DNA from: an uncultured bacterium
GTDB lineage: Bacteria > Patescibacteriota > Minisyncoccia > Phycocordibacterales > DATDWN01
DNA: 42,525 bases
Assembly: GCA_903861205.1 (NCBI GenBank)
Contig: CAIOTC010000017.1
Span: forward strand, 1 to 42,525
Reading direction: 5' to 3'
The first letter of the stretch is position 1, and each line of letters starts with the position of its first letter. The notes under the pieces were generated by a model that worked only from the letters and a program-made list of their open reading frames with translations, was not told where the DNA came from and made no database searches. Positions 1-37,946 of this stretch are shown piece after piece. Made by a program: the position numbers and the translations under genes.

Positions 1-1
1 A

Positions 2-133: not shown

Positions 134-172
134 AACATTTTACATCGAGAAAAATAAAATTCCAAAATCGCC

Positions 173-1279: not shown

Positions 1280-1295
1280 AGTACGTGTATTAAAC

Positions 1296-1459
1296 CACAA
1301 AACAAAAAATTTTCAAAAAATCTTGTCGAGACGAAGCAATTTTGGGGGCTCACGGACGGCGGCGGGCGGAGTGCGAGCGCAAAAAATAGCAATTTTTTGA
1401 CGCGCACCCCAAAATTGCTTTGACTCGTAAGAGATTTTTTGAGAATTTTTTGTTTTGTG
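1296..1459. repeat. Long-hairpin intergenic element, family L copy 1
   Basis: The 28-nt outer arms cacaaaacaaaaaattttcaaaaaatct / agattttttgagaattttttgttttgtg match 27/28. Inside are the junction motifs cttgtcgag ... ctcgtaagag shared with the other L copies. Confidence 0.8.
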
Positions 1460-1462
1460 ATT

Positions 1463-2293
1463 CTATTCCAACTTATAATACAATTTGTTACCAAACCTCA
1501 AATCAATATAATCAAAATTCAGCGTTGTTGTAGCTGTCGCGGAAATGGTGCCCAGAAGCGCCTGCAAGTTGTCAGCTGATTTGGCGAGCGGTTCCTTGGT
1601 GTCTATATATATGTATCCACCGCCCGCAAGCCCAACCGTGAATTGCTCGTCGCCTGTCGACTGCAAATAAATCGGATGCAAAGATAAATCTTGGGCGCGT
1701 TTTATAAATTTGCCAAAATCTTTGAAAAGAGTTGTGGAAGCAATGTATTGCGTACCGATAGGCGTCGTGGAAGAAGCAACCCTGCCGTAATATTTGAAAT
1801 ACGCGTCGCCGGAAAAATCCGGAGATTCGGCAAAAATTAAACCGTTATCATCCATGAAATAGCAAACTCCCGCCGGAACATCCTCCGGCATTCCACTGCA
1901 CCAGAGCGCGGTCAATGGGCGTTCAGTAATAGCAATGCTTAAAGTTTGAGAATTTTTCAAATGCACGGAAATGGTATCAATGCGCTGGAATTTTTCGGCA
2001 AGAAAATTTTGAAGCGAGTTGTGCTGATACAGCAAGTCGTTATTTTTCGGGAAAAACCAAAAATAATTTCCGCTCATAAAATTTTTCGCGGCGGCGGAAA
2101 CTTCATCGTTGGAAACCAATGTGTTGCCTGAAAGCTCAACCGAAGAAATACGAAATTTTTGCATGCGCGATAAAAACACAGTGCCAACAAACAGAATAAT
2201 CAACAAAAACAAAATAAAGCCGTATTTTATCAAACGAGCCTTTCTTTTTTTGAGCAAATATTCTTCTCGATGTGACAAGGGTTGAGAAGACAT
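1463..2293 (-). CDS. ftsQ: Cell division protein FtsQ-like (N-terminal TM helix plus POTRA)
   Basis: A TM helix (YGFILFLLIILFVGTVFL) is followed by ISSVELSGNTLVSNDEV, a POTRA-type start. The size is 276 aa. Confidence 0.7.
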   Translation of the reverse strand: MSSQPLSHREEYLLKKRKARLIKYGFILFLLIILFVGTVFLSRMQKFRISSVELSGNTLVSNDEVSAAAKNFMSGNYFWFFPKNNDLLYQHNSLQNFLAEKFQRIDTISVHLKNSQTLSIAITERPLTALWCSGMPEDVPAGVCYFMDDNGLIFAESPDFSGDAYFKYYGRVASSTTPIGTQYIASTTLFKDFGKFIKRAQDLSLHPIYLQSTGDEQFTVGLAGGGYIYIDTKEPLAKSADNLQALLGTISATATTTLNFDYIDLRFGNKLYYKLE

Positions 2294-2305
2294 TGAATTT
2301 TTAAA

Positions 2306-3577
2306 CTATTTTTTGGAGATAATTTTCTGTCCGTTCATGTATTGCTGCAGGACGTCGGGAATGCGAATACTGCCGTCTGCGTTTTGATAGTTTTCGACAA
2401 TCATAATGAGTGGTCGGCCGGAGAGCGCAGTGTTGTTGAGCGAGTGGACAAACTTCATCTTGCCGTCGTCATCGCGATAGCGGATGTTCAGTCGGCGCGT
2501 TTGGAAATCGTGGAAATAGGAGGCCGAGCCGGTTTCGCGATATTTATTTTCTGACGGCAGCCACGCTTCAATGTCATATTTTTTGACCTGTCCCAGTCCC
2601 AAATCCCCCGCGCAGTTTATAACCACATGATATGGCAATCCCAGAGCCTGCATTATTCCTTCGGTATTAGCTTGTATTTCCTCGTGAAATTTGACGGATT
2701 CTGTGTGTGAGGCCTCACACAAAACAACTTGTTCAAATTTATAAAATTCGTGAACGCGCAAAATACCTTTGGTGTCCTTGCCATGCGCGCCGATTTCCCG
2801 CCGAAATGCCGGAGAAAAGCCAATAAACTTTTTCGGCAAGTCTTTTTTATCCAATATCTCGTCCATGTGATAGCCCATGAGCGAAACCTCAGCCGTACCG
2901 GATAGAAATTCACCATCCTGTGTTTTAAACAAATCTTCCTCGCCTTGCGGCAAATATCCGGTGCCCATGAAAGCTTCGCGGCGAACGAGTGACGGCACGA
3001 TCATCGGAAACCAATCTCCTTTTTTCAAAAAATAATCATTGACAAATTGCCAAAGCGCAAACTGCAACCGCGCTCCGTCGCCAGTCAAAAAATATCCGCG
3101 GAAGCCAGCCACCTTTGTGCCGCGTTCAAGAGAAAGCATGTTGAGATTTTCCATCAGTTCCATGTGACTTTTCGGAGTGAAATCAAATTTTGGAATTTCG
3201 CCCCAAGTTGAAATTTCTTTGTTGTCTTCATCGCTGTTTCCTTCCGGCACGGACATGTCCGGAATGTTCGGCACACGAACCATCAGACTTTGCCAGTCGT
3301 GCATAACGGTTTTCAATTCCTCCTCCTCTTTTTGCAACTCGGATTTGAGAGCCTGCATTTTGGAAATCATTTCTGACTTTTCGACCGGGTCGGAAATCCT
3401 GACGATTTTGTCGGATGTCTCATTTTGCTCGGCACGCTTTTTTTCGATTTCGGAAATGAGTTCGCGTCTTTTGTCGTCCACTTTCAAAAGTTCCTCCACA
3501 TCAAAATCAATGTGTTTTTTCTTGGCGCCCATCTGCACCAAATCCTTGTTGTCTCGGATAAATTTTATGTCTAACAT
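2306..3577 (-). CDS. serS: Seryl-tRNA synthetase
   Basis: An N-terminal coiled-coil arm is followed by class II aaRS motifs (FRRE, GSASYFHDFQTRRL, NNTALSGRPL). The size is 423 aa. Confidence 0.95.
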   Translation of the reverse strand: MLDIKFIRDNKDLVQMGAKKKHIDFDVEELLKVDDKRRELISEIEKKRAEQNETSDKIVRISDPVEKSEMISKMQALKSELQKEEEELKTVMHDWQSLMVRVPNIPDMSVPEGNSDEDNKEISTWGEIPKFDFTPKSHMELMENLNMLSLERGTKVAGFRGYFLTGDGARLQFALWQFVNDYFLKKGDWFPMIVPSLVRREAFMGTGYLPQGEEDLFKTQDGEFLSGTAEVSLMGYHMDEILDKKDLPKKFIGFSPAFRREIGAHGKDTKGILRVHEFYKFEQVVLCEASHTESVKFHEEIQANTEGIMQALGLPYHVVINCAGDLGLGQVKKYDIEAWLPSENKYRETGSASYFHDFQTRRLNIRYRDDDGKMKFVHSLNNTALSGRPLIMIVENYQNADGSIRIPDVLQQYMNGQKIISKK

Positions 3578-3603
3578 AATAAATATAGTATATAACAGAA
3601 TGG

Positions 3604-3641
3604 AAAAATGAAAAAGGCGCTTGTGTGTTAAGCAAGCGCCC
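3604..3641 (-). terminator. Intrinsic-terminator-like hairpin about 30 nt upstream of the serS start codon, on the serS strand
   Basis: The minus strand reads gggcgcttg-cttaacaca-caagcgcc followed by tttttcattttt. It closes a roughly 270-nt hairpin-rich stretch (3642-3880). Confidence 0.55.
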
Positions 3642-3892
3642 TTCGAGAACTTCGTTGGTCCTCTAGAAGATGTATGTTTTCAACTTTTGACAATCCTGAA
3701 GAAACCAGAGTATTCTATAAAACTCCTTTCTCCGCTTTCCCAAGGCGGTATCTTAGGGAGGGAAAGACCGGAAATGAACGTTGGTCTTTAATCAAACTAT
3801 CACAAATGCAAAATTTTGCAAATGTTAGTCAGAGAGGGGCATCCTCTCGATTCGGGGTTGAGAAGATGCCCCTCTCTGATATAATTATTATC

Positions 3893-4759
3893 ATGCAAAT
3901 TGAAAATCTTCCGAAAAATAAATTTCCGGAACTGCTCAAACAAATTCCCGATCCACCGAAGAGTTTGCGGATCGTCGGAGAACTGCCGGCCGAAAATAAT
4001 CCGGACATAAAATATTTGTGCGTTGTCGGCTCGCGGAGATATTCACAATACGGAAAAGAAGTTTGCGAAAGTTTGATCGACGGTTTGCGCGGATATCCGA
4101 TCGCCATTGTTTCGGGACTGGCGCTTGGCATTGACGGTATCGCTCACCGCGCTGCGCTGAACGCAGGATTGAAAACCGTTTCAATTCCCGGCTCGGGACT
4201 TTGCGAAAAAAATATTTATCCGTCGGCTCACAAAGAACTGGCCAAAGAAATCGTGGAATCCGGCGGATGCTTGCTTTCCGAATTTGTCGACACATGGCAC
4301 CCACGGCTAGAAAGCTTTCCACAGCGCAATCGCATCATGGCTGGCATGTCGCACGCCACTTTCGTGGTTGAGGCCGAGCTGAAATCCGGCACGCTCATCA
4401 CTTCAAAATACGCCATTGAATACAACCGCGACGTTTTCACTGTGCCACATTCCATCTTCTCAAAAACTTCAGAAGGCCCGCATATGCTTCTGCGCCTCGG
4501 GGCCACGCCAATCACGCAGTCATCGGACATTGTCACGGCGCTGGGTTTGCGACCAAAAGAGGAACTTTTCGAAACGCGCGATTATTCCGAGTGTTCAACA
4601 GATGAAAAAGAAGTGATCGAAATCCTGCGCGAACCGATGTCGCGCGATGAAATAATTAGGATGTTGGAAAAACCGGTGTATGTCACACAAACCATTTTGG
4701 CAACGATGGAAATAAAAGGTTTAATTGTAGAACAAATGGGAGAGATACATCTCGTGTAA
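3893..4759 (+). CDS. dprA: DNA processing protein DprA/Smf. Start moved to MQIENLPK.
   Basis: GSRRYSQYG, VSGLALGIDGIAHRAAL and FPQRNRIMAG are DprA Rossmann-fold signatures. The upstream part of the track ORF crosses the structured serS leader. Confidence 0.85.
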   Translation: MQIENLPKNKFPELLKQIPDPPKSLRIVGELPAENNPDIKYLCVVGSRRYSQYGKEVCESLIDGLRGYPIAIVSGLALGIDGIAHRAALNAGLKTVSIPGSGLCEKNIYPSAHKELAKEIVESGGCLLSEFVDTWHPRLESFPQRNRIMAGMSHATFVVEAELKSGTLITSKYAIEYNRDVFTVPHSIFSKTSEGPHMLLRLGATPITQSSDIVTALGLRPKEELFETRDYSECSTDEKEVIEILREPMSRDEIIRMLEKPVYVTQTILATMEIKGLIVEQMGEIHLV

Positions 4760-4796
4760 TTTGCTAAAAAAATAATTTTCGGTAATACTACTAAAT

Positions 4797-7043
4797 ATGA
4801 CAAAACTTTTAATCGTTGAATCTCCGGCAAAAGCAAAAACAATTTCAAAATATTTGGACGGCAAGTACGAGGTGGTCGCCAGTGTCGGACACATTCGTGA
4901 TTTGCCGAAATCAAACAAAATCGCCATCGATATTCCAGGCGGTTTTATTCCGCATTACGAAATTTCCAAAGGCAAAGAAAAAATTGTTTCGGAAATAAGA
5001 TCGCTCGCTAAAAAAGCTGACATTGTCCTGCTAGCCACCGACCCCGACCGCGAAGGCGAGGCAATCGCTTGGCATATCGAACAGCTCATCAGAGGTGATT
5101 TTCCAAATTCCAAAGTCAAAAAAACGGAAACCGACGACAAAATTAAACGTGTCAGCTATCACGAAATCACCAAAGAAGCTATCGAAGAAGCTCTGGAACA
5201 TCCGAGGGAAATCGATCAGAATTTGCGCCAAGCCCAGGAAGCTCGACGCGTTTTGGACAGGCTTGTCGGCTACGATTTATCCGGACTCATCTGGAAAAAA
5301 GTGCGTTACGGACTTTCAGCCGGACGCGTTCAGTCGCCCGCTTTGCGCATCATCATGGAACGCGAGCGCGAAATCCGCGCTTTCAAATCGCACAAGTTCT
5401 GGGTTATTTCCGCCGATGTTATTCCCCAAGGTGACACCTTGGGGGAAAAGTTTACCGTTGTCTGCGAAAAAGAACCGACCATCAAGGGCGAGGTAGAGCA
5501 GATTATTTTGGACGCTGAAAAAGCCGGAAAAGAAAACAGCTGGTACGTCAAAGATGTCAAAGAAACGCAAGTTAAGAAAACTCCGCGACCACCGTTCATC
5601 ACTTCCACGCTCCAGCAGTCGGCCAGCACGCGTCTCGGTTTCGCTCCATCGCGTACAATGGGCATCGCTCAAAAACTTTACGAATCCGGTTACATCACAT
5701 ACATGCGCACAGACTCAACCAACCTCTCTCAGCTCGCGCTCGGCCAAATCGCCGGTGAAATAGAGAAAAGATTTGGTAAAGATTTTTTGCAGTTCAGAAA
5801 ATATGCAGCCAAAAGCAAAAATGCCCAGGAAGCCCACGAAGCAATTCGCCCGACGCACATGTCCGTTGAAAAAGCCGGGCACACCGATGAACAGCAAAAG
5901 TTGTACGAACTTATCTGGCACCGCACACTCGCTTCGCAGATGCGCGACGCCGAAACTTTGCGAACAAAAATCACAGCAAACGTGGCTGGCGACAAAGTTC
6001 CAGATTTTTCCTCTGTCGGTTCGCGTGTCATTTCTCCCGGCTGGCTTTTGGGCGACCCTGCTTCGCGAGGCGAAGATGTGGAATTACCGAAAGTAAAAAC
6101 TGATGAAAATCTTACGCTTGAAAAAGTTAGCACTGAGGAAAAAGAAACGGAACCGCCGACAAGATATTCCGAAGCCGGATTAGTCAAGGAATTGGAAAAA
6201 CGTGGCATCGGCCGACCTTCGACGTACGCTTCGATTATCAAAACGATCGAAGACCGCGGATACGTAGAAAAAATAAACAAAGCTCTTGTGCCGACGGACA
6301 CAGGCGATGTCGTTTCGTCATTTTTGGAAAAAAATTTCGAAAGTTACATCAGCGACGATTTCACTGCCGAGATGGAAGACAAACTCGACCTTATCGCTGA
6401 GGGCAAGGAAGACTACACCAAGATGCTGACAAAGTTTTACAAGCCGTTTTTGGCTGACGTCAAAGCCAAAGATAAATTGGACAAAGTGACAAACCTCGGC
6501 GACGCCGATCCAAAATTCAAATGTCCGATTTGCGGAGGTCCGATGATTATCAAACTTTCGCGTGGCGGGAAATTTTTGTCATGCGCCAAATATCCGGACT
6601 GCGACGGGGCGCTGACCATGGACGGACAGGAAATCAAAAAAGATGAACCGATCGGTGTTGATCCGGAAAGCGGTTTGCCAATTTTTGTCATGATTGGAAA
6701 ATATGGACCTTATGTACAGCTCGGCGAACGAGCCAGTGGCAAAGGTAGCACAAAGGCCGCCAAACCGAGAATGGCTAGTGTGCCAAAAGGCAAGGATTTG
6801 TCGACGATTACTTTGCAGGAAGCGCTAAAATATTTATCGCTGCCGCGCGTCCTCGGCGTCCATCCGGCTACGGGCGAAAAAATTTCCGCCAATGTCGGAA
6901 TGTTTGGACCGTACGTCGTTCACCAAAAAGATTTTCGGTCGCTCAAAGCGCCAGATGATGTTTACACCGTCGAACTCCCCCGCGCTCTGGAAATTTTCGC
7001 TCAAGAGAAGAAAAAACGCGGGTTTGCGAAGAAGAAAAAGTAA
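4797..7043 (+). CDS. topA: DNA topoisomerase I
   Basis: A TOPRIM start (LLIVESPAKAKTISKYL), the active-site region YITYMRTDS and a C-terminal Cys4 zinc ribbon (CPICGG...CAKYPDC) are present. The size is 748 aa. Confidence 0.95.
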   Translation: MTKLLIVESPAKAKTISKYLDGKYEVVASVGHIRDLPKSNKIAIDIPGGFIPHYEISKGKEKIVSEIRSLAKKADIVLLATDPDREGEAIAWHIEQLIRGDFPNSKVKKTETDDKIKRVSYHEITKEAIEEALEHPREIDQNLRQAQEARRVLDRLVGYDLSGLIWKKVRYGLSAGRVQSPALRIIMEREREIRAFKSHKFWVISADVIPQGDTLGEKFTVVCEKEPTIKGEVEQIILDAEKAGKENSWYVKDVKETQVKKTPRPPFITSTLQQSASTRLGFAPSRTMGIAQKLYESGYITYMRTDSTNLSQLALGQIAGEIEKRFGKDFLQFRKYAAKSKNAQEAHEAIRPTHMSVEKAGHTDEQQKLYELIWHRTLASQMRDAETLRTKITANVAGDKVPDFSSVGSRVISPGWLLGDPASRGEDVELPKVKTDENLTLEKVSTEEKETEPPTRYSEAGLVKELEKRGIGRPSTYASIIKTIEDRGYVEKINKALVPTDTGDVVSSFLEKNFESYISDDFTAEMEDKLDLIAEGKEDYTKMLTKFYKPFLADVKAKDKLDKVTNLGDADPKFKCPICGGPMIIKLSRGGKFLSCAKYPDCDGALTMDGQEIKKDEPIGVDPESGLPIFVMIGKYGPYVQLGERASGKGSTKAAKPRMASVPKGKDLSTITLQEALKYLSLPRVLGVHPATGEKISANVGMFGPYVVHQKDFRSLKAPDDVYTVELPRALEIFAQEKKKRGFAKKKK

Positions 7044-7250
7044 AATTGCATTTTCATAGACACGCATAAATCGCTGGTGCGATTTTGCTATGCTCGGAAA
7101 TCAAGAAAACAATCGTCCTCGATACAGAGCCCTTTCGCAAACGGCGTCCTAGGGCGCCGCCCTTGCTGCGCAGGGTCGCTGCTTCGGGCTTCTTTCATCT
7201 TCGTCGTTGTTTTCTAATTTCCTGCGCAAGTCTCTGAAAATGCAATTTTA
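7041..7250. repeat. Long-hairpin intergenic element, possible divergent family L member (copy 2)
   Basis: Perfect 16-nt outer arms taaaattgcattttca / tgaaaatgcaatttta start on the topA stop codon. Inner arms are ggaaatcaagaaaacaa / ttgttttctaatttcc. The junction motif is degenerate. Confidence 0.6.
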
Positions 7251-7300
7251 CTTTTTCAGTGGTAATTTTTCAGAAAATCACTACAATAGAGACGAACCTG

Positions 7301-7356
7301 CATTATTCGTAGCAATTCGTAGATTCGCATCATTCGCATATTCGTATATTCATTCA
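7301..7356 (+). repeat. Tandem ATTCGYAK array (6 units) ending 1 nt before the relA start codon
   Basis: The sequence reads cattattcgtagca-attcgtag-attcgcatc-attcgcat-attcgtat-attcattcac. A near-identical array lies upstream of ftsZ (36726-36772). Confidence 0.75.
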
Positions 7357-7357
7357 C

Positions 7358-8782
7358 ATGACCGATATCAAAGAAATCATTTCCCTTCTTCATGAACCAA
7401 CCGAAAAAGACAAGGAGCTTGTTCAAAAAGCTTGCGATTTTGCTTTGCGCGCACATGCAGACCAGAAGCGTTTGTCAGGCGAGCCATATTTCAATCACGT
7501 GTTTGCCACGGCCAAAAATATTGCCGAGCTGGGCATGGATGCCACAACCGTTTCGGCCGGATTTTTACACGACGTTGTGGAAGACGCCGGAGTAAAACCG
7601 GAAGATTTAGAAAAAGAATTCGGAAGTGAAATCAGATTTTTAGTTGAGGGTGTAACAAAATTGGGAAAAATAAAATACCAAGGAACTTCACGTTACAACG
7701 AGAGTTTGCGGAAATTTTTCATAGCTGTGTCACAGGACATCCGCGTGCTCATCATCAAACTCTGCGACCGTTTGCACAACATCCAAACTTTGCAATATGT
7801 GCGACCAGAAAAACAACTGCGCATCGCCAAGGAAACACTGGAAATTTACGCGCCACTCGCCTACCGCCTCGGAATCAAAAAACTCCAGAGAAATTTGGAA
7901 GACACGTCGTTTGCTTACGTTTATCCGGAAGAATCGGAAAAAATAAAAAAATTACTGAATGTTAGAAAAGAGGAACAGGAAAAACTTTTGCACGAATTTC
8001 AAAAATCACTCAAAAAAGAATTGGCAAAAAACGGCATCGTGGAGTTTCGCATAGATCATCGAGTCAAAAGTCTGTACAGCTTGTACAAAAAACTTCAGAA
8101 ATACGATTGGAACGTGGAAAATATTTATGACATCTCGGCGCTCAGAATTACCGTCAAAGAAGTTCAGGATTGCTACAGAGTGCTCGGCATCATTCACGGT
8201 TCGTGGCGACCTTTGCCAGGCAGAATCAAGGATTACATCGCCACACCAAAACTGAACGGTTATCGCTCGATCCACACTACTGTTTTTTCCGGCGACGGTG
8301 GAATCATCGAAGTCCAAATCAGAACGGAGGAAATGGACAAGGAAGCGGAATTCGGAATCGCTTCGCATATTTCCTACAAAGAAGGAAAAAAATCAGGATC
8401 AGCGAATCAAAACCTTTTGTGGATAAAAAATTTGGCAAAATACAACAAGGAAAGCGGTGATGAATTTTTGGCAGATATTAAAACGGATTTTTTTGAGGAA
8501 AGAATTTTTCTTTTTACTCCGAAAGGCGATGTCATAGATTTGCCGGCAGGCTCGTCCGCTGTCGATTTTGCCTACAACATCCACTCCGATATCGGCAATC
8601 ATATGTCAGGCGTCAAAATCAACAACAAATTTGTGGCGCTCGACACAGCTTTGCAGTCCGGCGATTTGGTGGAAATCGAAACAAAAAAATCGGCTAAGCC
8701 GAGTCACAAATGGTTGGAATATTGCAAAACAACGATTGCCAAAAGGCATATCAGAAATGCTTTGGAAAACAGGAAAAATTAA
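7358..8782 (+). CDS. relA: RelA/SpoT homologue (HD hydrolase, ppGpp synthetase and TGS domains; no ACT domain)
   Basis: The HD motif HDVVEDA, the synthetase core YRSIHTTV...EVQIRT and the TGS segment FTPKGDVIDLPAGSSAVDFAY are present. The size is 474 aa. Confidence 0.9.
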   Translation: MTDIKEIISLLHEPTEKDKELVQKACDFALRAHADQKRLSGEPYFNHVFATAKNIAELGMDATTVSAGFLHDVVEDAGVKPEDLEKEFGSEIRFLVEGVTKLGKIKYQGTSRYNESLRKFFIAVSQDIRVLIIKLCDRLHNIQTLQYVRPEKQLRIAKETLEIYAPLAYRLGIKKLQRNLEDTSFAYVYPEESEKIKKLLNVRKEEQEKLLHEFQKSLKKELAKNGIVEFRIDHRVKSLYSLYKKLQKYDWNVENIYDISALRITVKEVQDCYRVLGIIHGSWRPLPGRIKDYIATPKLNGYRSIHTTVFSGDGGIIEVQIRTEEMDKEAEFGIASHISYKEGKKSGSANQNLLWIKNLAKYNKESGDEFLADIKTDFFEERIFLFTPKGDVIDLPAGSSAVDFAYNIHSDIGNHMSGVKINNKFVALDTALQSGDLVEIETKKSAKPSHKWLEYCKTTIAKRHIRNALENRKN

Positions 8783-8787
8783 CGACA

Positions 8788-8910
8788 CAAATTTCTTACG
8801 AGCCAACACTTTTCCGTCGCCAGAATATTTTTCTGCTGAAAAATTTCTTCCTGCTCGTCTCTTCACGGGCTCCGCAATGCGCCGTAAAAGCGTCGGCTCG
8901 ACAAAATTTG
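8788..8910. repeat. Family L element copy 3 (short form)
   Basis: The sequence caaatttcttacgagccaacactttt ... aaaagcgtcggctcgacaaaatttg is about 90% identical to copies at 35812-35950 and (reverse complement) 24610-24744. Confidence 0.85.
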
Positions 8911-8921
8911 CTAGTGGTTAT

Positions 8922-10019
8922 TTAAATACTGAAATTTTTGATCGAGTAAATGTCGTCCTCGCTGTTTTCGTCTTTTTTGATTTCTTCGGGACTTCGGTCG
9001 TCGAGGTTTTCCGGTTCAGACTCCGGTTCAATATTTTCCACAGGAATTTCTGGTGGAATTTTTACAATATCCCCCATTTGCATTTTGGCAATCTCCGGCG
9101 CGCGAACATATTTTGGAATGGATTCGTTGACTGGCGGTTCAGGATTTTGTTCGATGTGTTTGTCCATCATTTCTGTCGGAGATTTTTTCTGGTTTGATTT
9201 GATCAAATCCAAAATGCTGTTCAGATCTTCCTTCGAGAAAAAGTCAATCATAATTTTCCCGCCATTTTCTTTCTTTTCGATCAAAACGCGCGTGCCAAGC
9301 GTCTCGGTCAATTTTTCCTCCATTTCCTGTATTTCAATATCGAGCGTGAAGCCCTTTTTGTGCGTTTTATCGTAAGCGATTCGGCGCGCCAAACTTTCCG
9401 CCTCGCGCACAGTCAACTTTTTGAACATTATTTCCTTGAAAAGTGTCAATTGTTCGTCCGGCCTGTCGGCGAGTGTCATGAGCGGTCGCGTATGTCCTTC
9501 CGAAATTTGACCTCTTGAAAGAGCCTCGAGCATTTCGGGAGGAAGGGTGAGCAGTCGCATGGAATTAGTCACATAAACGCGCGACTTACCGACTTTTGTA
9601 GCTATTTCCTGGTGTGTGAATTTAAATTCGTTGACCAATCGCTCGAAAGCTCGGCCGCGGTCCACCGGATTTAGATCCTCGCGCTGAACATTTTCGATGA
9701 TGGCCAGCTCAAGCTTCATCAGGTCGTTCGTCTCGTCGCCAACTTTGATGAGCACCGGCACCTGCGAAAGTCCGGCAATTTTCGACGCGCGCAAACGACG
9801 CTCGCCAGCAATGAGTTCGTACACAGTGGAAAGTCCACCATCCTCTTTTGGCACTTCTTTGCGCGTGACCACCAGCGCCTGCAAAACACCGTACTGACGG
9901 ATCGAATCAGCCAGCGATTGCAGCTGCATTTCGTCAAACTCGCGCCGCGGCTGAAACGGATTCGGATTTATTTTGTCCACATCCACCCAAAAAATTGAAT
10001 CTTCAAAGAATTGGCTCAT
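8922..10019 (-). CDS. parB: ParB/Spo0J partition protein with an acidic C-terminal extension
   Basis: NPNPFQPRREF, LIAGERRLRASK and the HTH segment HQEIATKVGKSRVYVTN are present. The size is 365 aa. Confidence 0.9.
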   Translation of the reverse strand: MSQFFEDSIFWVDVDKINPNPFQPRREFDEMQLQSLADSIRQYGVLQALVVTRKEVPKEDGGLSTVYELIAGERRLRASKIAGLSQVPVLIKVGDETNDLMKLELAIIENVQREDLNPVDRGRAFERLVNEFKFTHQEIATKVGKSRVYVTNSMRLLTLPPEMLEALSRGQISEGHTRPLMTLADRPDEQLTLFKEIMFKKLTVREAESLARRIAYDKTHKKGFTLDIEIQEMEEKLTETLGTRVLIEKKENGGKIMIDFFSKEDLNSILDLIKSNQKKSPTEMMDKHIEQNPEPPVNESIPKYVRAPEIAKMQMGDIVKIPPEIPVENIEPESEPENLDDRSPEEIKKDENSEDDIYSIKNFSI

Positions 10020-10028
10020 GGGTATATT

Positions 10029-11060
10029 TTAACATAATATAATTTCAGGTTCAATTTCAAGATTAAGAGAAAACTTGTCTTTTACTGCTTTTTGTATTTC
10101 AGAAACAAATGACATAAGAGTGGCTATATTTTGAGCTGATTTATTTACAACCACCAAAGCATTTTTATAATACGTTCCAATGCCATTCTTTTCTACGCCT
10201 TTCAAGCCAGATTTTTCAATAAGCCAGCCCGATGGAATTTTGTAACCATTTTGATACTGAAAAAAAGGAATGCCCGAGAAAATCTTTTGTAATTCCTTTA
10301 ACTTTGGTTCATCAACAAAAACATTCTTGAAAAATGAACCGGCATTTGGAATCAATTTCGGATCAGGCAACTTTTCTAATCTGATTTTTTGAATCGTTTT
10401 TCGTATTTGTTTCAAAAGCGACATATTCGGAAATTCTGTTTTTATATCATTTAATGTTTCAGATACTTTCGGATATTTTGAGATTTGCGGAATTTCTTTT
10501 TTAAATTTGAAAACGACCGATTCGATGATGAATTTGCCTTTTAATCGGTTTTTAAAAATACTGTCGCGATAACCAAAACGACAATTTTCAGCAGAAATCG
10601 TTTCAAATTTTTTGGTAATTATATTGTATCCTTTGACGCTTTCAATAACATTCGAAACTTCCTGACCATAAGCACCGATATTTTGGACCGGCGAGGCTCC
10701 TACTGTGCCGGGTATGGACGATAAATTTTCAACCCCGGAAAAATCACTTTTAACCACAAAATCAACAAAATCATCCCAGATTTCTCCGCCACATACTTTT
10801 ATTCTGACGCACAAATCATTTTCATCTAAAATTTCAATTCCTTTGTTTTCCATTTTTATGCAAAATATGTCTGAGATAATGTCACCAATAACCAGATTTG
10901 ACCCGCCACCTAATACAAGTATCGACACTTTTTTATTTTCGGCAAAATTAGCACAATCCAAAATATCGCTCTCATTCTTACATACGCCAAAATATCTGGC
11001 AGATCCGCCAAGTCGTATCGTGGTATATTCCTTCAAACAAATGTATTCTTTTATTTGCAC
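10029..11060 (-). CDS. murB: UDP-N-acetylenolpyruvoylglucosamine reductase
   Basis: An FAD-binding start (TTIRLGGSARYF, VLGGGSNL) is followed by AGSFFKN and a C-terminal domain. The size is 343 aa. Confidence 0.9.
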   Translation of the reverse strand: MQIKEYICLKEYTTIRLGGSARYFGVCKNESDILDCANFAENKKVSILVLGGGSNLVIGDIISDIFCIKMENKGIEILDENDLCVRIKVCGGEIWDDFVDFVVKSDFSGVENLSSIPGTVGASPVQNIGAYGQEVSNVIESVKGYNIITKKFETISAENCRFGYRDSIFKNRLKGKFIIESVVFKFKKEIPQISKYPKVSETLNDIKTEFPNMSLLKQIRKTIQKIRLEKLPDPKLIPNAGSFFKNVFVDEPKLKELQKIFSGIPFFQYQNGYKIPSGWLIEKSGLKGVEKNGIGTYYKNALVVVNKSAQNIATLMSFVSEIQKAVKDKFSLNLEIEPEIILC

Positions 11061-11068
11061 CTAAAAAT

Positions 11069-11086
11069 TATATCATATATGATATA
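11069..11086. promoter_or_regulatory. 18-bp perfect palindrome TATATCATATATGATATA in the 29-bp murB/murA divergent spacer; candidate operator
   Basis: All 9 base pairs of symmetry were checked position by position. It lies 3 nt upstream of the ATG of the HTH-MurA fusion. Confidence 0.5.
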
Positions 11087-11089
11087 TAC

Positions 11090-12601
11090 ATGAACAACTC
11101 AAAAACACTCGGCGGTATTATAAAACAAGCCAGAGAAGAAACCGGTATGACGCAGATTGAATTCGCCAGGAAAATGAAAACGTCTCAGAGCGCCGTGGCG
11201 CGCATCGAAAGAGGCGGGCAAAATCTGACAACCGAAAACGTCCAAAAAATAAGTGAAGCACTCGGCAAAACGCTTTTAAAAGTTGAAAACAAAACCGATG
11301 ATTTTAAAATTGTCGGAGGCAAAAAACTTTCCGGTACGATACAGACCAACACCTCAAAAAACGGCGCGCTCGGACTATTTTGCGCTTCCCTGCTCAACAA
11401 ACAAGCCACGATTCTCCATGGCATTCCGCACATAGAAGAAATCTCCAGAATAATTGAAATTTTTCACAGCATCGGAGTAAAAGTGGAATGGATAAAAGAA
11501 AATTCAGTCAAAATCACTCCTCCACAAAAACTAAAATTGGAATCCCTGAACGCAGATTCGGCCTCAAAAATTCGTTCCGTCATAATGCTTATCGGAGCGG
11601 TCATTCACAAAGAGAAAAAATTTAAAATACCTCATGCGGGTGGGTGCAAAATGGGTGAGCGAACGATTTCCGCCCACAAATATGGACTGGAATCGCTTGG
11701 CGCTGACATAAAAACAAAAGAAAATTTCTACGAAATAACGGTTAAAAAATTAAAACCGAATGACGTCGTCCTCTACGAGGCCAGCGACACCGCTACTGAA
11801 AATTTGCTCATTGCTTCGGCTCTTATCCCCGGAAAAACCACCTTGAGATTTACTCCACCGAACTACCAAGTCCAAGAAGTGTGTTATTTTTTGGAAAAAT
11901 GCGGGGTGAAAATCGAAGGAATCGGCACGAGCACTTTGGTCATTCATGGCATAAATGAAATAAATTCACAAATTGAATATCACAACAGCGAAGACCCGAC
12001 CGAGTCAATGATGTTTATCGCTTCCGCGCTTGTGACGAATTCCAAACTCACAATCACCAGATGCCCGATTGATTTTCTTTCATTGGAAATTTTGAAGTTG
12101 GAAAAAATGGGAATGAAATATAAAAAAAGCAAAGTTTATTTTTCCAAAAACGAAAGGACGCGGCTTTGCGACATAACGATCTTTCCTTCCAAACTTGTGG
12201 CCTTGAAAGACAAAATTCACGCCTCGGCTTATCCGGGCATAAATACGGACAATTTGCCATTTTTCGTCCCAGTCGCTTCGGTGGCCGAGGGAAGCACTCT
12301 CATTCACGACTGGATGTGGGAAAACAGAGCAATATATTTTACCGAATTAAACAGGCTTGGCGCCGACATCACCCTTGCCGATCCGCACAGAGTTTTTGTA
12401 ACCGGACCTAGACAGCTGAAAGGCAACCAGATGGTTTGCCCGCCGGCACTGCGTCCATCCATGATGATTTTGGTGGCCATGCTGGGAGCGAAAGGCGAAT
12501 CGATTTTGCGAAATGTTTATGCCATAAATCGCGGCTACGAAAAAATCGCCGAACGCCTGAACTCCATCGGCGCGGATGTGAAGATAATAAGCGAGATATA
12601 A
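11090..12601 (+). CDS. murA: XRE-type HTH domain fused to UDP-N-acetylglucosamine 1-carboxyvinyltransferase (MurA)
   Basis: Residues 1-65 (GIIKQAREETGMTQIEFARKMKTSQSAVARIERG) form a Cro/C1 HTH. The rest is MurA (KIVGGKKLSGTI, catalytic-Cys loop HAGGCKMGERT). The size is 503 aa. Confidence 0.85.
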   Translation: MNNSKTLGGIIKQAREETGMTQIEFARKMKTSQSAVARIERGGQNLTTENVQKISEALGKTLLKVENKTDDFKIVGGKKLSGTIQTNTSKNGALGLFCASLLNKQATILHGIPHIEEISRIIEIFHSIGVKVEWIKENSVKITPPQKLKLESLNADSASKIRSVIMLIGAVIHKEKKFKIPHAGGCKMGERTISAHKYGLESLGADIKTKENFYEITVKKLKPNDVVLYEASDTATENLLIASALIPGKTTLRFTPPNYQVQEVCYFLEKCGVKIEGIGTSTLVIHGINEINSQIEYHNSEDPTESMMFIASALVTNSKLTITRCPIDFLSLEILKLEKMGMKYKKSKVYFSKNERTRLCDITIFPSKLVALKDKIHASAYPGINTDNLPFFVPVASVAEGSTLIHDWMWENRAIYFTELNRLGADITLADPHRVFVTGPRQLKGNQMVCPPALRPSMMILVAMLGAKGESILRNVYAINRGYEKIAERLNSIGADVKIISEI

Positions 12602-12609
12602 AAACTTTG

Positions 12610-12693
12610 TGCCGGGAGGGAGACTTGAACTCCCACGACCTTGCGATCACAGCATTTTGAGTGCTGCATGTTTACCAATTACATCATCCCGGC
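12610..12693 (-). tRNA. tRNA-Leu (anticodon CAA)
   Basis: The manual cloverleaf has acceptor GCCGGGA/TCCCGGC, anticodon arm CAGCA-CTCAAAA-TGCTG, a 15-nt variable arm, T arm GGGAG-TTCAAGT-CTCCC and discriminator A. Confidence 0.9.
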
Positions 12694-12739
12694 TTACAAG
12701 TACAGATTATCGTAATTTGGACAAAAAATCAACGGTGAT

Positions 12740-12767
12740 TTGCTTTTTTGGACGCAGGTTGTATTAT
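12740..12767 (+). promoter_or_regulatory. Candidate sigma70-like promoter (TTGCTT-16-TATTAT) for a short structured transcript upstream of miaA
   Basis: Hexamers were read directly. The terminator at 12863-12896 lies about 100 nt downstream. Confidence 0.4.
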
Positions 12768-12862
12768 GGTTGTGGCGGAAGAACGTAGAGTATGGCTAGT
12801 CGCCCTTGCTTTTGCCCAGGCATCGCAAGTCAGATTAAAGCCAGAGGGTGGTTCAACTGCCA

Positions 12863-12896
12863 GGGGCCGATTCCCGCAACGCATCGGCCCTTTATT
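12863..12896 (+). terminator. Intrinsic terminator hairpin 10 nt upstream of the miaA ATG
   Basis: The stem is gggccgat-tcccgcaacgc-atcggccc, followed by tttatt. Confidence 0.55.
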
Positions 12897-12906
12897 CTAT
12901 AATAAA

Positions 12907-13797
12907 ATGCAAAAATTAATCGTCATACTCGGGCCAACATCCGGAGGAAAATCGGATACTGCGGTAAAAATCGCCAAGAAATTTGACGGGGAAATTATTT
13001 CGGCCGATTCGCGACAGGTATACAAAGGCCTCGACATTGGCACGGGAAAAATCACAAAGAAAGAAATGCGTGGCATTCCCCACCACATGCTTGACGTAGC
13101 AAATCCTAAAAAAAGATTTGATGTAGCGATGTGGCAAAAACAAACCAAAATAATAATTGCTGATATTTTTGCTCGCGGAAAATTACCAATCATCTGTGGT
13201 GGCACTGGATTTTATATCCAATCAATTGTCGACAATTTGGAATTGCCGGAAGTTCCGCCAAACAAAAAATTGCGAGAAAAATTGGAAAAGAAAACTTTAC
13301 CAGAACTTATTGAAATTTTAAAAAAGCTTGATCCGGAAAAATTGAAAACAATCGACACCAAAAATCCGGTCCGGCTTGTCCGCGCCATTGAGATTGCCAC
13401 CCAGCTCGGCTCCGTGCCAAAATTGCAAAAAAATAATAATGACTATGAAATTCTCCAAATTGGCCTAACATTTCCTGACAAAATTTTGAAAAAAAGAATT
13501 TTCATTCGCCTTCGAAGGCGAATGAAAATGGGAATGCTTGATGAGGCAAGAAAACTACACAAAGCAGGCTTGTCGTGGAAAAGGATGAATGAACTTGGTT
13601 TGGAATACAGGCACATGGCGTTACTTTTGAATAACAGAATGTCTCGTGAAGAATTCATCCAAAAATTGAACACTGAAATCTGGCATTACGCCCGCCGACA
13701 GTGGCAATGGTTTAAGCGCGACAAAAACATCAAATGGTTCTCGCCCACTGAAATCAACAAAATCGAAAAAGAAGTGGAAAAATTTATGAAAAAGTAG
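12907..13797 (+). CDS. miaA: tRNA dimethylallyltransferase. Start moved to MQKLIVILGPTSGGKS.
   Basis: P-loop GPTSGGKS and ISADSRQVYKGLDIGTGK are present. The upstream part of the track ORF runs through the terminator hairpin. Confidence 0.9.
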   Translation: MQKLIVILGPTSGGKSDTAVKIAKKFDGEIISADSRQVYKGLDIGTGKITKKEMRGIPHHMLDVANPKKRFDVAMWQKQTKIIIADIFARGKLPIICGGTGFYIQSIVDNLELPEVPPNKKLREKLEKKTLPELIEILKKLDPEKLKTIDTKNPVRLVRAIEIATQLGSVPKLQKNNNDYEILQIGLTFPDKILKKRIFIRLRRRMKMGMLDEARKLHKAGLSWKRMNELGLEYRHMALLLNNRMSREEFIQKLNTEIWHYARRQWQWFKRDKNIKWFSPTEINKIEKEVEKFMKK

Positions 13798-13812
13798 TAG
13801 GGTAAGCATATT

Positions 13813-15033: not shown

Positions 15034-15072
15034 CCAGGTTCTGGTTGTGATTTAATGATCAAGGAGGGCAAA

Positions 15073-15231: not shown

Positions 15232-15260
15232 AGCAGGCTTCACCATAAGGAGTAAACAAA

Positions 15261-15638: not shown

Positions 15639-15657
15639 TTACGGATTTTATACTAAC

Positions 15658-15684: not shown

Positions 15685-15717
15685 ACTTGTTAAACTTTTC
15701 CAACTTATCAAACTTAT

Positions 15718-36438: not shown

Positions 36439-36725
36439 TCTCTACTCTCCTTTTGCATCAGCTCCTCAAGAAGCTGCTAGTACTTTTCCACCTTTTATTA
36501 AAGCACCTTTGGCATCTTCATGTCAACTTCATAATGTAATTTGTTATCCACACCTGTTTGGGGAGCAAAAATTGCTCAAAAACTGGAACATCAAAAATCA
36601 TATGGTCAATTGTTTGCTTATCTGTGGCTTTCTGATACAATATGGGTGATTTCCTGAACCTTGATTTTTCCATAAATCGGCAGTATCGAGGTATTTTGGA
36701 AATTTTTCTTTTTATTGTAATTAAA

Positions 36726-36772
36726 TTATTCGTAGCCATTCGTAATATTCGCATCATTCGTATATTCGTATG
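36726..36772 (+). repeat. Tandem ATTCGYAK array (5 units) 17 nt upstream of the ftsZ ATG
   Basis: The sequence reads attattcgtagcc-attcgtaat-attcgcatc-attcgtat-attcgtatgg. Compare 7301-7356. Confidence 0.75.
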
Positions 36773-36788: not shown

Positions 36789-37946
36789 ATGCCACAAATC
36801 AAACCAGAAGTAGAAGCATTCGCTCGGATCAAAGTTCTCGGCATCGGCGGTTCCGGAAAAAACGCGCTCAACCACATGATCAACTCGAAAGTTCGCGGAG
36901 TTGATTTCATTGCCGTCAATACCGACTCGCAGGATTTGCACAACTCGATGGCCAAGAGGAAAATTCATATCGGTAAAAACCTCACTCGCGGATTGGGCGC
37001 CGGAATGAATCCGGAACTCGGCAAACGGGCCATTGAAGAAACGAAAGAGGAAATTCAAGAAGCGGTCAAAGGATCCGACATGGTTTTTATCGCCGGCGGA
37101 CTTGGGGGCGGAACTTGCACGGGCGCAGCGCCGGTTGTGGCTCGCATTTCAAAAGAAATGGGCGCGCTAACCGTGGCTGTCGTGACCAAACCGTTTTTCT
37201 TTGAAGGCCAGCAAAGAATGAAAATCGCCGACGTCGGTCTTGACGAACTTCGCCAAGCGGTTGACGCCATCATCGTCATTCCAAACGACCGACTACTCTC
37301 AACCATCAGCAAAGAAACGACCGCTAAAAGCGCCTTTGCCATGTGCGACGACGTTTTGAAATCGGCTGTCGAAGGTATCTCCGACCTCATCACCACACCC
37401 GGCATCATCAACATCGACTTCGCCGATATCAAAGCCGTCATGGAAAACGCTGGACCGGCCCTGATGGGCATCGGCACGGCTACGGGTGAAAAACGCGCCG
37501 AGGAAGCGGCCAAATCGGCCATCAATTCCCCACTGCTCGAAGTTTCGATCAACGGCGCCAAAGGTGTACTGTTCTCGATTGCCGGCGGAGACGACCTGGG
37601 CATGTTCGAAATCCAGGACGCTGCCAAAATCATTACCGAGTCCGTCGATCCAAACGCCAAGATTATTTTCGGAACCGTTCGCGACGAAAAACTGAAAAAA
37701 GGCGAAGTTAAAATCACCGTCATCGCTTCCAACTTCCCGGAAAATTTCACCAAGAAAACGCTTTTCCAGGCGCAGGCCAGCAACGCACCAATTTCCGATC
37801 GCCGAGAGATGGAAGAGGAGAAGGGTAAAATCTACAACTCAATCCCCGTCTCATCACCAAGAATGGATGAAAAGATAGATGTCGTTGAAGAAGACGACGA
37901 ATGGGGAGCTGTCCCGGCGTTTTTGAGAAGGTCAAAAATTAAATAA
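36789..37946 (+). CDS. ftsZ: Cell division GTPase FtsZ
   Basis: GIGGSGKNA, the tubulin signature GGLGGGTCTGAAPV and NIDFADI are present. The size is 385 aa. Confidence 0.95.
   Translation: MPQIKPEVEAFARIKVLGIGGSGKNALNHMINSKVRGVDFIAVNTDSQDLHNSMAKRKIHIGKNLTRGLGAGMNPELGKRAIEETKEEIQEAVKGSDMVFIAGGLGGGTCTGAAPVVARISKEMGALTVAVVTKPFFFEGQQRMKIADVGLDELRQAVDAIIVIPNDRLLSTISKETTAKSAFAMCDDVLKSAVEGISDLITTPGIINIDFADIKAVMENAGPALMGIGTATGEKRAEEAAKSAINSPLLEVSINGAKGVLFSIAGGDDLGMFEIQDAAKIITESVDPNAKIIFGTVRDEKLKKGEVKITVIASNFPENFTKKTLFQAQASNAPISDRREMEEEKGKIYNSIPVSSPRMDEKIDVVEEDDEWGAVPAFLRRSKIK

What the first reader, a model, noticed from the sequence alone, without database searches (positions are those of the whole stretch)
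7301..7356. The same tandem ATTCGYAK array sits directly in front of the relA and ftsZ start codons
Both 7301-7356 (6 units, ending 1 nt before the relA ATG) and 36726-36772 (5 units, 17 nt before the ftsZ ATG) read attcgtagc(a/c)-attcgta(g/at)-attcgcatc-attcg(c/t)at-attcgtat. Neither gene has a recognisable Shine-Dalgarno sequence, unlike many other genes here. Direct octamer repeats at an 8-10 nt period in the 5' UTR or promoter of a stringent-response gene and the main division gene suggest a shared regulator (a direct-repeat-binding response regulator or an RNA-binding protein) or a translation-initiation element.
Basis: seen in the sequence. Interest (0 to 1): 0.6.

Follow-up and report, generated by a model that had tools for sequence, protein, structure and literature searches.

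The report
Dispersed tandem-octamer repeat with promoter-like tip
The identical ATTCG-repeat blocks in front of relA and ftsZ are two recent insertions of a short repeat found at 36 places in this tiny genome and in related bacteria; its end probably acts as a portable promoter, not as a switch shared by these two genes.

Summary
Both arrays exist as described and are about 46/48 identical. They are two of 36 copies of a ~45-50-nt oriented element in this 0.88-Mb genome. A three-unit pattern of the same core occurs in 11 of 41 relatives and 101 of 401 genomes of the class.

All copies lie between genes. Nine are inverted pairs that fold as hairpins between co-directional genes. Of the 18 singles, about 9 face a start codon and 8 face a stop codon.

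At relA the array is a clean 64-nt insertion between a conserved leaderless promoter (TACAAT-N6) and the ATG. At ftsZ it sits downstream of the conserved promoter. None of 29 relatives has it at either gene.

The last unit forms TATATT 6-8 nt before many start codons, which is this genome's leaderless-promoter geometry. One pair was inserted exactly into a TAA|ATG junction (murG|gltX).

Best reading: a mobile intergenic repeat whose forward tip supplies a promoter. No transcript data exist. A dedicated OmpR-type regulator is not supported: 8 of 11 array-bearing genomes lack one.

Earlier notes of this scan describe similar repeat-built leaderless promoters in other CPR genomes. No paper was found.

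The parts
7305..7347 (+). ATTCG array, five units (10, 8, 9, 8, 8 nt), forward copy in front of relA
   Evidence: nhmmer E 4e-15
7294..7357 (+). 64-nt segment (gaacc + TGCATT + array + ATTCATTCAC) absent from all 29 relatives' relA loci; inserted between the old discriminator and the ATG
7345..7350 (+). TATATT, -10-like box formed by the last unit plus ATT, 7 nt before the relA ATG
   Evidence: score 3.7 bits, top 4.4% of random ATGs, 7th percentile of this genome's leaderless promoters
7282..7293 (+). Ancestral leaderless relA promoter remnant: TACAAT + 6-nt discriminator agagac, which abuts the ATG in relatives
7358..8782 (+). relA/spoT homologue (HD_4, RelA_SpoT, TGS)
36728..36771 (+). ATTCG array, five units (10, 9, 9, 8, 8 nt), forward copy 17 nt before the ftsZ ATG
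   Evidence: E 1e-14
36761..36766 (+). TATATT at the junction of units 4 and 5; the only -10-like box of the ftsZ copy, 22 nt before the ATG (would give a short leader without a Shine-Dalgarno sequence)
   Evidence: no box at leaderless distance
36604..36641 (+). Conserved ancestral ftsZ promoter GGTCAATTGTTT...CTTTCTGATACAAT (extended -10 TGnTACAAT), shared with most relatives
36789..37946 (+). ftsZ (Tubulin, FtsZ_C)

Best explanation
The array is one arm of a dispersed, copy-and-spread intergenic repeat family. Each arm is about 45-50 nt: TGCATT, then five tandem ATTCGYA-based units of 8-10 nt, then an A/T-rich tail. Arms occur singly in either orientation, or as inverted pairs of two arm subtypes that form a 110-125-nt hairpin.

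The element lands in the very short spacers of this compact genome, often flush with a start codon. In the forward orientation its last unit plus the tail makes a -10-like box (TATATT / TATGTT) 6-8 nt before the ATG. RNA polymerase would then start at or next to the start codon and make a leaderless mRNA, the commonest gene layout in this genome. The element therefore carries its own promoter and keeps, or rewires, expression of the gene it lands in front of.

At relA it was inserted between the old leaderless promoter and the ATG, and most likely replaces that promoter. At ftsZ it sits in the leader of the old promoter. There it may add a second start about 15 nt before the ATG or simply be carried along.

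Shown: the copy family, its contexts, the insertions, and the geometry. Inferred: promoter activity, the means of spread, and any bound factor.
For: Family size: nhmmer finds 36 copies with E <= 3e-6, and the next hit has E 0.33.

Position: all copies are intergenic. There are 9 inverted pairs, each between two co-directional genes: IF3>L35, L35>L20, SSB>S18, DnaG>RpoD, MurG>GltX, x>DnaK, AAA-ATPase>NusA, FtsA-like>x, x>S8. These fold at -34 to -59 kcal/mol.

Insertions: relA in G000 has a clean 64-nt insert after TACAAT-agagac, where at least 17 of 29 relatives have a -10 box, 6 nt, then the ATG. murG|gltX is TAAATG or a 1-2-nt spacer in 5 of 5 array-less relatives, but in G000 holds a 127-nt pair exactly between TAA and ATG. 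That pair ends TATGTT-aaacaa-ATG. A -58.7 kcal/mol hairpin with no SD would block translational coupling, so the element must bring its own start signal. dnaK in genus g2 has the array in 2 species and lacks it in 2 others that keep the same upstream TTGCAT-N17-TATAAT.

Geometry: the distance from the last-unit hexamer to the start is 6 (x4), 7 (x2), 8 and 9 in G000, and 6 (x4), 7 (x3), 8 (x3) in relatives. Genome-wide, TANNNT sits 6 nt before 120 of 811 ORF starts against about 30 at other offsets. The array box scores within this genome's own leaderless-promoter range for relA, S19, L20, S18, RpoD and C22:40403.

Recent copying: two identical 115-nt pairs flank rpmI, and there are three identical copies in G017.

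Recurrence in other genera: arrays precede NusA, DnaK, S19, RecR and PilB.
Against: No transcript 5' ends exist: no RNA run holds this organism.

The array box lacks the TG of this genome's usual extended -10 and scores only at the 7th-29th percentile of real leaderless promoters. No good -35 lies at 16-18 nt.

An E. coli-type promoter scan does not call the arrays, although it also misses the conserved ancestral promoters.

The ftsZ, L35, NusA, C15 and PilB copies have no box at leaderless distance.

About half of the single copies, and the distal arm of every pair, point into the 3' end of a gene, where a promoter has no obvious use.

In antisense copies the next gene starts 0-15 nt after the element with neither promoter nor SD. 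Genes here can therefore be expressed across the element without its promoter.

In distant class members the arrays end differently (GTTACCCT-ATG; GTAGAGAAATCA-ATG) and lack a TANNNT at -12..-7.

No target-site duplication and no cognate transposase were found.

The class-wide conservation of the ATTCGYA core hints at a trans-acting factor that this explanation does not name.
Confidence: 0.55

Rival explanations
1. The arrays are binding-site arrays for a conserved sequence-specific DNA-binding protein. This could be a global activator or repressor, or the polymerase's own upstream-contacting parts. Genes behind forward copies (ribosomal proteins, EF-Tu, NusA, RpoD, DnaK, GltX, RelA, FtsZ) would then form a growth or stress regulon.
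For: The ATTCGYA core is kept across the class: the three-unit pattern is in 101 of 401 genomes of many families, while the reversed control pattern gives 0. The most conserved part across 89 copies is the first two units, ATTCGTAGCC ATTCGTA, spaced 10 bp apart, not the -10-like end. Forward copies recur at the same housekeeping genes in different genera. In two G000 cases (T2SSE ATPase, DnaK) the array lies just upstream of a separate good -10 box, where an activator or UP-like module would sit.
Against: Orientation of single copies relative to genes is about 50:50. The relA and ftsZ copies are absent in all 29 relatives at each gene. Units 3-5 are spaced 8-9 bp, off the helical repeat. OmpR-type regulators are missing from 8 of 11 array-bearing genomes, 7 of which are at least 94% complete. 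The three extra sigma factors are ECF-type, an unlikely match for ribosomal-protein genes; their distribution was not tested.
Confidence: 0.15
2. The arrays act in RNA, not DNA. They would be transcribed from upstream promoters. Single arms would be unstructured A/U-rich spacers that let ribosomes initiate or re-initiate without an SD. Inverted pairs would be long stem-loops that terminate transcripts or are cut by RNase III to separate cistrons.
For: Both relA and ftsZ keep their ancestral promoters upstream of the array, so the arrays could be in the 5' UTR. Antisense copies lie between a stop codon and the next ATG (0-15 nt away) with no SD and no promoter box, yet those genes (mreD-like, pilin-like) must be translated. 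Pairs fold at -34 to -59 kcal/mol. In G295 the arrays end in GAGAAATCA-ATG, an SD-like distance.
Against: No complement of any array unit occurs in the assembled 16S rRNA, although its 3' tail is unresolved. Rfam has no match in 20 loci around the copies. A -58.7 kcal/mol hairpin directly before gltX would hinder rather than help re-initiation. The sharp 6-8-nt spacing between TATATT and the ATG has no role in this model.
Confidence: 0.12
3. The element is a purely selfish or neutral repeat with no role in expression. It survives only where it does no harm. The apparent -10 geometry would be a by-product of an A/T-rich tail and of very short spacers.
For: The arrays occur in both orientations and are patchy among relatives: the three-unit pattern is in 11 of 41, and none was found in the same-genus genome G001. 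There are recent identical copies. The 5' end is also often flush with the neighbouring gene, as expected if the element simply fills minimal spacers. This genome carries several other repeat families.
Against: Insertions between a leaderless promoter and its ATG (relA), and into a TAA|ATG coupling junction of an essential gene (gltX), would be harmful unless the element restores initiation. Sequence conservation across genera, and of the core across a class, is more than a neutral repeat should keep.
Confidence: 0.15

Closest known systems
Correia repeat enclosed elements (CREE) of Neisseria (abstract of PMC2649163 seen in a search listing)
   Same: Both are short non-coding dispersed elements with inverted-repeat structure that sit between genes. 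Both differ in presence between related genomes. CREE can create a promoter at one or both ends and forms a hairpin in read-through RNA.
   Different: The arms here are tandem arrays of 8-10-nt direct repeats, not a simple terminal inverted repeat. Single arms are as common as pairs. No TA or other target duplication was seen. The -10 box is placed for leaderless mRNAs. IHF and RNase III binding were not tested.
REP / BIME / REPIN elements with RAYT transposases (recalled; the REPIN abstract PMC8049555 appeared in the listing)
   Same: Both are multi-copy intergenic repeats occurring as singles or as inverted pairs built from two different subtypes, mostly between co-directional genes.
   Different: A REP unit is itself a palindrome, whereas an ATTCG arm is not. 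G000 has 7 Y1_Tnp genes, each flanked by its own short palindrome. None of the 7 has ATTCG clusters within 260 nt.
Putative mobile promoters / promoter reuse in prokaryotes (abstract of PMC3575422)
   Same: In both, near-identical upstream regions stand in front of unrelated genes within and between genomes, read as promoters that spread separately from genes.
   Different: That work is a sequence-similarity survey. It does not describe tandem-octamer architecture, inverted pairs, or leaderless geometry. I did not read beyond the abstract.
Leaderless-gene promoters (-10 box 6-8 nt before the start codon) of Actinobacteria and Deinococcus-Thermus
   Same: TANNNT lies 6-7 nt before the ATG and there is no SD. 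This is the dominant layout in this genome and the geometry of forward arrays.
   Different: Ordinary leaderless promoters here are unique sequences with an extended -10 (TGnTAnAAT). The array version lacks TG and is a repeated 45-nt cassette.
Pho-box-type operators of OmpR/PhoB response regulators (recalled)
   Same: Both have direct repeats of a 7-nt core, and the first two units are spaced 10 bp apart upstream of a -10 box.
   Different: The later units are spaced 8-9 bp. The cognate regulator class is missing in 8 of 11 array-bearing genomes. Copies occur in both orientations.

Membership tests
MITE-like element with outward promoter (Correia type) | Many short non-coding copies, confined to intergenic DNA | tested here: met
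   36 copies. All lie outside genes except for overlaps of 20 nt or less with gene ends; two 'inside' calls are long-ORF artefacts.
MITE-like element with outward promoter (Correia type) | Terminal inverted repeats | tested here: inconclusive
   9 inverted pairs form hairpins, but 18 copies are single arms without an inverted partner.
MITE-like element with outward promoter (Correia type) | Target-site duplication at filled versus empty sites | tested here: not met
   No convincing duplication at relA, murG|gltX or ssb|rpsR. At dnaK in genus g2 the array replaces the leader rather than simply interrupting it.
MITE-like element with outward promoter (Correia type) | Presence/absence polymorphism at orthologous sites | tested here: met
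   relA 1 of 30 loci, ftsZ 1 of 30 loci, dnaK present in 7 and absent in the rest of 30 loci; murG|gltX 0 of 5 relatives.
MITE-like element with outward promoter (Correia type) | Measured promoter activity at the element end | not testable with these tools
   No RNA run listed; only sequence geometry is available.
REP/REPIN with RAYT | Each repeat unit is an imperfect palindrome | tested here: not met
   Arms are direct tandem repeats; only pairs are palindromic.
REP/REPIN with RAYT | A Y1 transposase gene flanked by the repeats | tested here: not met
   None of the 7 Y1_Tnp genes has ATTCG clusters within 260 nt on either side; each has a different palindrome.
Operator array of an OmpR/PhoB-type response regulator | Direct repeats one helical turn (10-11 bp) apart | tested here: inconclusive
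   Units 1-2 are 10 bp apart; units 2-5 are 8-9 bp apart.
Operator array of an OmpR/PhoB-type response regulator | Cognate regulator co-occurs with the sites | tested here: not met
   PF00486 is found in 3 of 11 array-bearing and 10 of 30 array-less relatives.
Sigma-70 leaderless promoter | TANNNT box ending 6-8 nt before the start codon | tested here: met
   Met for relA (7 nt), S19, L20, S18, GltX (6 nt), and RpoD and C22:40403 (8 nt). Not met for ftsZ, L35, NusA, C15 and PilB.
Sigma-70 leaderless promoter | Transcript 5' end at the start codon | not testable with these tools
   No RNA holder listed.
Translation enhancer pairing with 16S rRNA | Complementarity of the repeat unit to 16S rRNA | tested here: not met
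   No 7- or 8-nt complement of any unit occurs in the assembled 16S; the 3' tail could not be located.

The most novel reading that the evidence does not exclude
ATTCGYA tandem arrays are a class-wide, previously undescribed promoter module of ultra-small CPR bacteria. A repeat-built upstream cassette would be read by a conserved factor (the polymerase itself or an unknown protein) and would stand in for the -35 and extended -10 elements. It would drive leaderless housekeeping genes. It would spread by copy-and-paste to the exact stop|start junctions of operons, converting translationally coupled genes into independent leaderless transcription units. As an inverted pair it would be both terminator and promoter.
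Probability: 0.25. Interest if true: 0.7.

Novelty: new variant of a known kind. Interest (0 to 1): 0.45.

Why it matters
If the forward tip is a working promoter, these very small genomes rewire the expression of core genes (relA, ftsZ, rpoD, dnaK, ribosomal proteins) by pasting in a ready-made leaderless promoter cassette. They would also break operons into single-gene units in the same way. That would be a concrete, testable case of mobile promoters in a group whose transcription signals are essentially unstudied.

The result also warns annotators. Identical upstream blocks in CPR genomes need not mean a shared regulon.

The class-wide conservation of the 7-nt core remains unexplained and points to a factor worth finding.

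Tried and rejected
RNA evidence: no RNA holder was listed for the window, so no 5' ends could be read.

Laying the DNA contigs of 4 runs of one study on window 1-20000 showed contigs in 3 runs bridging the relA array. No joint skipped it, so no empty-site allele was seen.

Rfam (E <= 0.1) on 20 loci around the copies gave only one chance-level microRNA match. ARAGORN found no tRNA or tmRNA next to any copy.

The E. coli-type promoter/terminator scan called neither the arrays nor the conserved ancestral promoters, so it is uninformative for this organism.

16S complementarity: none found. Exact primer-like words did not locate the 16S. The Rfam model placed it on C11 with insertions, and its 3' tail was not resolved.

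OmpR-type regulator as partner: no co-occurrence.

RAYT-type transposase as partner: none of the 7 genes is flanked by arrays.

ECF sigma factors were looked at but their distribution was not tested.

Target-site duplications: none convincing.

Earlier findings looked up by the array sequence: nothing.

Literature: no paper holds Patescibacteria + leaderless + promoter or Parcubacteria + leaderless. 'candidate phyla radiation' + 'repeat elements' + 'intergenic' gave two irrelevant papers. Supplements were not consulted.

The idea that a small gene bracketed by arrays in G002 (an 81-aa ORF) is a partner enzyme was dropped. It looked like an ordinary small housekeeping protein to me, but this was not tested by any family search.

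Full report
**The observation**

Window 7305-7347 holds five ATTCG-based units of 10, 8, 9, 8 and 8 nt. A degenerate sixth unit (ATTCATTCAC) runs to 7357, and the relA ATG is at 7358. Window 36728-36771 holds five units, and the ftsZ ATG follows 17 nt later at 36789.

The two blocks are more than similar repeats. They align almost base for base over about 48 nt, including the order of the unit variants.

The word ATTCGYAK alone is not enriched in the window (11 matches against 7.3 expected), but 9 of the 11 matches lie in these two arrays. Clusters of four or more ATTCG within 45 nt arose in only 8 of 1000 Markov shuffles, never twice.

Pfam confirms the gene names.

**A dispersed family, not a relA/ftsZ feature**

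The window is contig C17 of an 883,597-bp assembly. A simple cluster scan found 28 arrays; one of them, inside a gene on C10, looks unrelated.

A profile built from 26 arrays finds 36 copies with E <= 3e-6, and the next hit has E 0.33. There are two arm architectures:
- a five-unit type, to which the relA and ftsZ copies belong;
- a shorter type, ATTCGTAGCC ATTCGTAG-ACCC-ATTCGTTA-TTTCGTAT.

Across 89 distinct copies from G000 and relatives, the best-conserved parts are units 1-2 (ATTCGTAGCC ATTCGTA) and the last two ATTCG cores.

**Contexts**

I used my own crude ORF calls plus Pfam. These calls have a 90-aa minimum, so small genes were read by hand.

Every copy is intergenic. Eighteen copies form nine inverted, back-to-back pairs. 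Each pair lies between two co-directional genes: infC>rpmI, rpmI>rplT, ssb>rpsR, dnaG>rpoD, murG>gltX, an unknown gene>dnaK, an AAA ATPase>nusA, an FtsA-like gene>an unknown gene, and upstream of rpsH.

The two arms of a pair are of different subtypes, and the pairs fold at -34 to -59 kcal/mol.

Of the 18 single copies:
- nine point at a nearby start codon: a class-V aminotransferase, EF-Tu (180 nt away), rpsS, an unknown membrane protein, relA, ftsZ, two T2SS/T4P-type ATPases, and an unknown 358-aa protein;
- eight point into the stop codon of a convergently read gene;
- one is unclear.

In three relatives plus scattered loci, singles split 11 toward starts, 11 toward stops and 5 unclassified. 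This count was made after removing duplicate rows from overlapping loci and leaving out the G000 locus L025.

**The relA and ftsZ copies are lineage-specific insertions**

For relA I read 30 loci, G000 and 29 relatives. At least 17 of the 29 relatives have a -10 box exactly 6 nt before the ATG, typically aaatatcacTACAATnnnnnnATG, which is a leaderless promoter.

G000 keeps cagaaaatcacTACAATagagac (TACAAT at 7282-7287). It then has 64 extra bases (7294-7357) before the ATG, and the alignment shows one clean gap. No relative has the array at relA.

For ftsZ, most relatives share GGTCAATTGTTT...CTTTCTGATATGATA followed by a 45-60-nt leader. G000 keeps this promoter at 36604-36641, and only G000 has the array (1 of 30 loci). 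G013 shares part of G000's longer leader without the array.

Some other genomes carry different tandem arrays before ftsZ:
- GACTTTATA units in G012;
- 7-mers in G027;
- AAGCTAC in G029.

**Other filled and empty sites**

murG and gltX are joined as TAAATG, or by 1-2 nt, in 5 of 5 array-less relatives. In G000 a 127-nt inverted pair sits exactly between TAA and ATG and ends TATGTT-aaacaa-ATG.

The ssb|rpsR spacer is 19-24 nt in G003 and G013. In G000 the pair fills a 124-nt spacer.

At dnaK, five genera have a pair and two species of genus g2 have a single copy. Two other g2 species keep the same upstream TTGCAT-N17-TATAAT promoter without the array.

Two identical 115-nt pairs flank rpmI, and G017 has three identical copies. 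Copying is therefore recent as well as old.

**Why a promoter is the best reading**

This genome is mostly leaderless. TANNNT ends 6 nt before 120 of 811 long-ORF starts, against about 30 at neighbouring offsets. SD-like words are only mildly enriched. Ordinary promoters here are extended -10 boxes (TGnTAnAAT) without a clear -35.

In forward arrays the last unit plus the tail makes TATATT or TATGTT. Its distance to the start codon clusters at 6-8 nt:
- G000: 6 (x4), 7 (x2), 8, 9;
- relatives: 6 (x4), 7 (x3), 8 (x3).

I scored the array boxes with a matrix built from 117 array-free leaderless promoters of this genome, allowing 5-9 nt spacing. The boxes of relA (spacing 7), rpsS, rplT, rpsR, rpoD and C22:40403 score 3.7-6.8 bits. 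That is the top 2-4% of random ATGs but only the 7th-29th percentile of real promoters, because they lack the TG.

The strongest argument is logical. An insertion between a leaderless promoter and its ATG (relA) would cut off an important gene. So would a -58.7 kcal/mol hairpin inserted into a TAA|ATG coupling junction (gltX). Both are tolerable only if the element brings its own start signal.

**What speaks against it**

- There are no transcript data.
- ftsZ, rpmI, nusA and two others have no box at leaderless distance.
- For ftsZ the only candidate is TATATT at 36761-36766. It would give a leader of about 15 nt without an SD; otherwise the array simply rides in the old leader.
- Half of the singles and all distal arms point into gene ends.
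- In antisense copies the next gene's ATG follows the element's 5' end by 0-15 nt, with neither box nor SD, in four or five of eight cases. Expression across the element is therefore possible.
- The E. coli-type scan calls nothing, but it also misses the conserved ancestral promoters.

**Distribution**

The 17-mer ATTCGTAGCCATTCGTA (up to 2 mismatches) occurs in 15 of 41 relatives: 32 times in G000, 31 in G002, and none in the same-genus G001. The reversed control pattern gives 0-1.

A looser three-unit pattern is in 11 of 41 relatives and in 101 of 401 genomes sampled across the class. The reversed control is 0 in all rows shown.

In three distant genomes the arrays again precede rplT, fusA, rpsC, rpmC, rplQ and other genes, but with other 3' ends.

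Such deep conservation of a 7-nt core suggests a trans-acting factor. I could not name one:
- OmpR-type regulators do not co-occur (3 of 11 array-bearing against 10 of 30 array-less genomes).
- None of the seven RAYT-like genes is flanked by arrays.
- No unit is complementary to the assembled 16S.

**Comparison with what is known**

The nearest described things are:
- Neisseria Correia elements, which per the abstract of PMC2649163 can create promoters at their ends and form hairpins;
- REP/BIME pairs (recalled);
- the 'promoter reuse' survey (abstract of PMC3575422).

The tandem-octamer arms, the equal use of single arms, the leaderless placement and the missing target duplication set this family apart.

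I found no paper on it.

Earlier notes of this scan describe heptamer-built and repeat-adjacent leaderless promoters, and a start-codon-splitting hairpin element, in other CPR genomes. So the scan has met relatives of this phenomenon before on other DNA. Those notes are leads, and I tested only the leaderless layout and the gain/loss pattern here.

The taxonomic label (Patescibacteria/Parcubacteria) comes from such notes. It was not checked by me beyond the small genome and the insertion-bearing 16S.

**Verdict**

The proposed relA-ftsZ co-regulator is not supported. The arrays are copies of a mobile intergenic repeat whose forward tip most likely serves as a portable promoter. It would be leaderless at relA, and at ftsZ it would give at most a short SD-less leader.

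Noticed in passing
window 26790-26890, 34045-34135, 34524-34620, and a half copy at 25469-25520: A second repeat family: about 95-nt palindromic elements whose arms are tandem 7-mers (CAATTTC... / ...GAAATTG), lying in spacers next to gene starts. Simple patterns hit roughly 20-34 places genome-wide. G012 has a similar TTAGAAA-based palindrome just before dnaK.
   Followed up: partly
G000 contig C11, about 3640-3790 (upstream of the 16S gene); also C16 minus strand near 57427, and L054 (G012 ftsZ upstream): A third array family built of GACTTTAYA units. An inverted pair of it lies directly upstream of the 16S rRNA gene, and it shares the module TAGACCCATT with the short ATTCG arm type.
   Followed up: partly
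whole genome G000: Leaderless layout dominates. TANNNT ends 6 nt before 120 of 811 long-ORF starts, usually as an extended -10 (TGnTAnAAT) with no clear -35. SD-like words are only weakly enriched.
   Followed up: yes
G000 contig C11:741-3635: The 16S rRNA gene spans about 2.9 kb in five model pieces, so it carries large insertions. After AAGTCGTA the sequence departs from the model, and the 3' tail with the anti-SD was not found.
   Followed up: partly
G000 C14:245, C16:58360, C18:73019, C12:9184, C20:24914, C3:49177, C18:50882: Seven Y1_Tnp (IS200/RAYT-like) genes of about 212-236 aa lie in a 0.88-Mb genome. Most are flanked on both sides by their own short GC-rich palindrome, which differs from gene to gene.
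   Followed up: partly
relA loci of relatives (L074-L097): In most relatives the RelA match comes in two pieces (residues 1-360 and 354-473), inside open frames of 500-645 aa. Their proteins therefore carry an extra segment between the synthetase and TGS domains that G000's 474-aa protein lacks.
   Followed up: no
L198 (G001), L201 (G004), L202 (G014): ssb-rpsR spacer: These three array-less genomes share a conserved element of about 150 nt between ssb and rpsR (...ctggcgaactcc..ttggacttcggtaaaataattttcac...). It is possibly a structured leader or another repeat.
   Followed up: no
L142-L144, L147 (dnaK upstream in genus g2): A conserved TTGCAT-N17-TATAAT promoter is followed by the palindrome TTAACATGTTAA, a possible heat-shock operator. 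It is kept whether or not the ATTCG array is present downstream.
   Followed up: no
L106 (G002:C1:2023-5039), about 1446-1905: An 81-aa gene is bracketed by two array pairs that are inverted duplicates of each other, so that identical arms face the gene from both sides. rpmI in G000 is bracketed in the same way.
   Followed up: partly
window 7323-7354 in runs X2 and X4: A contig from another locus or organism matches only the inner array units and continues with unrelated flanks. Array-bearing relatives or paralogous copies are therefore present in the same lake samples.
   Followed up: no
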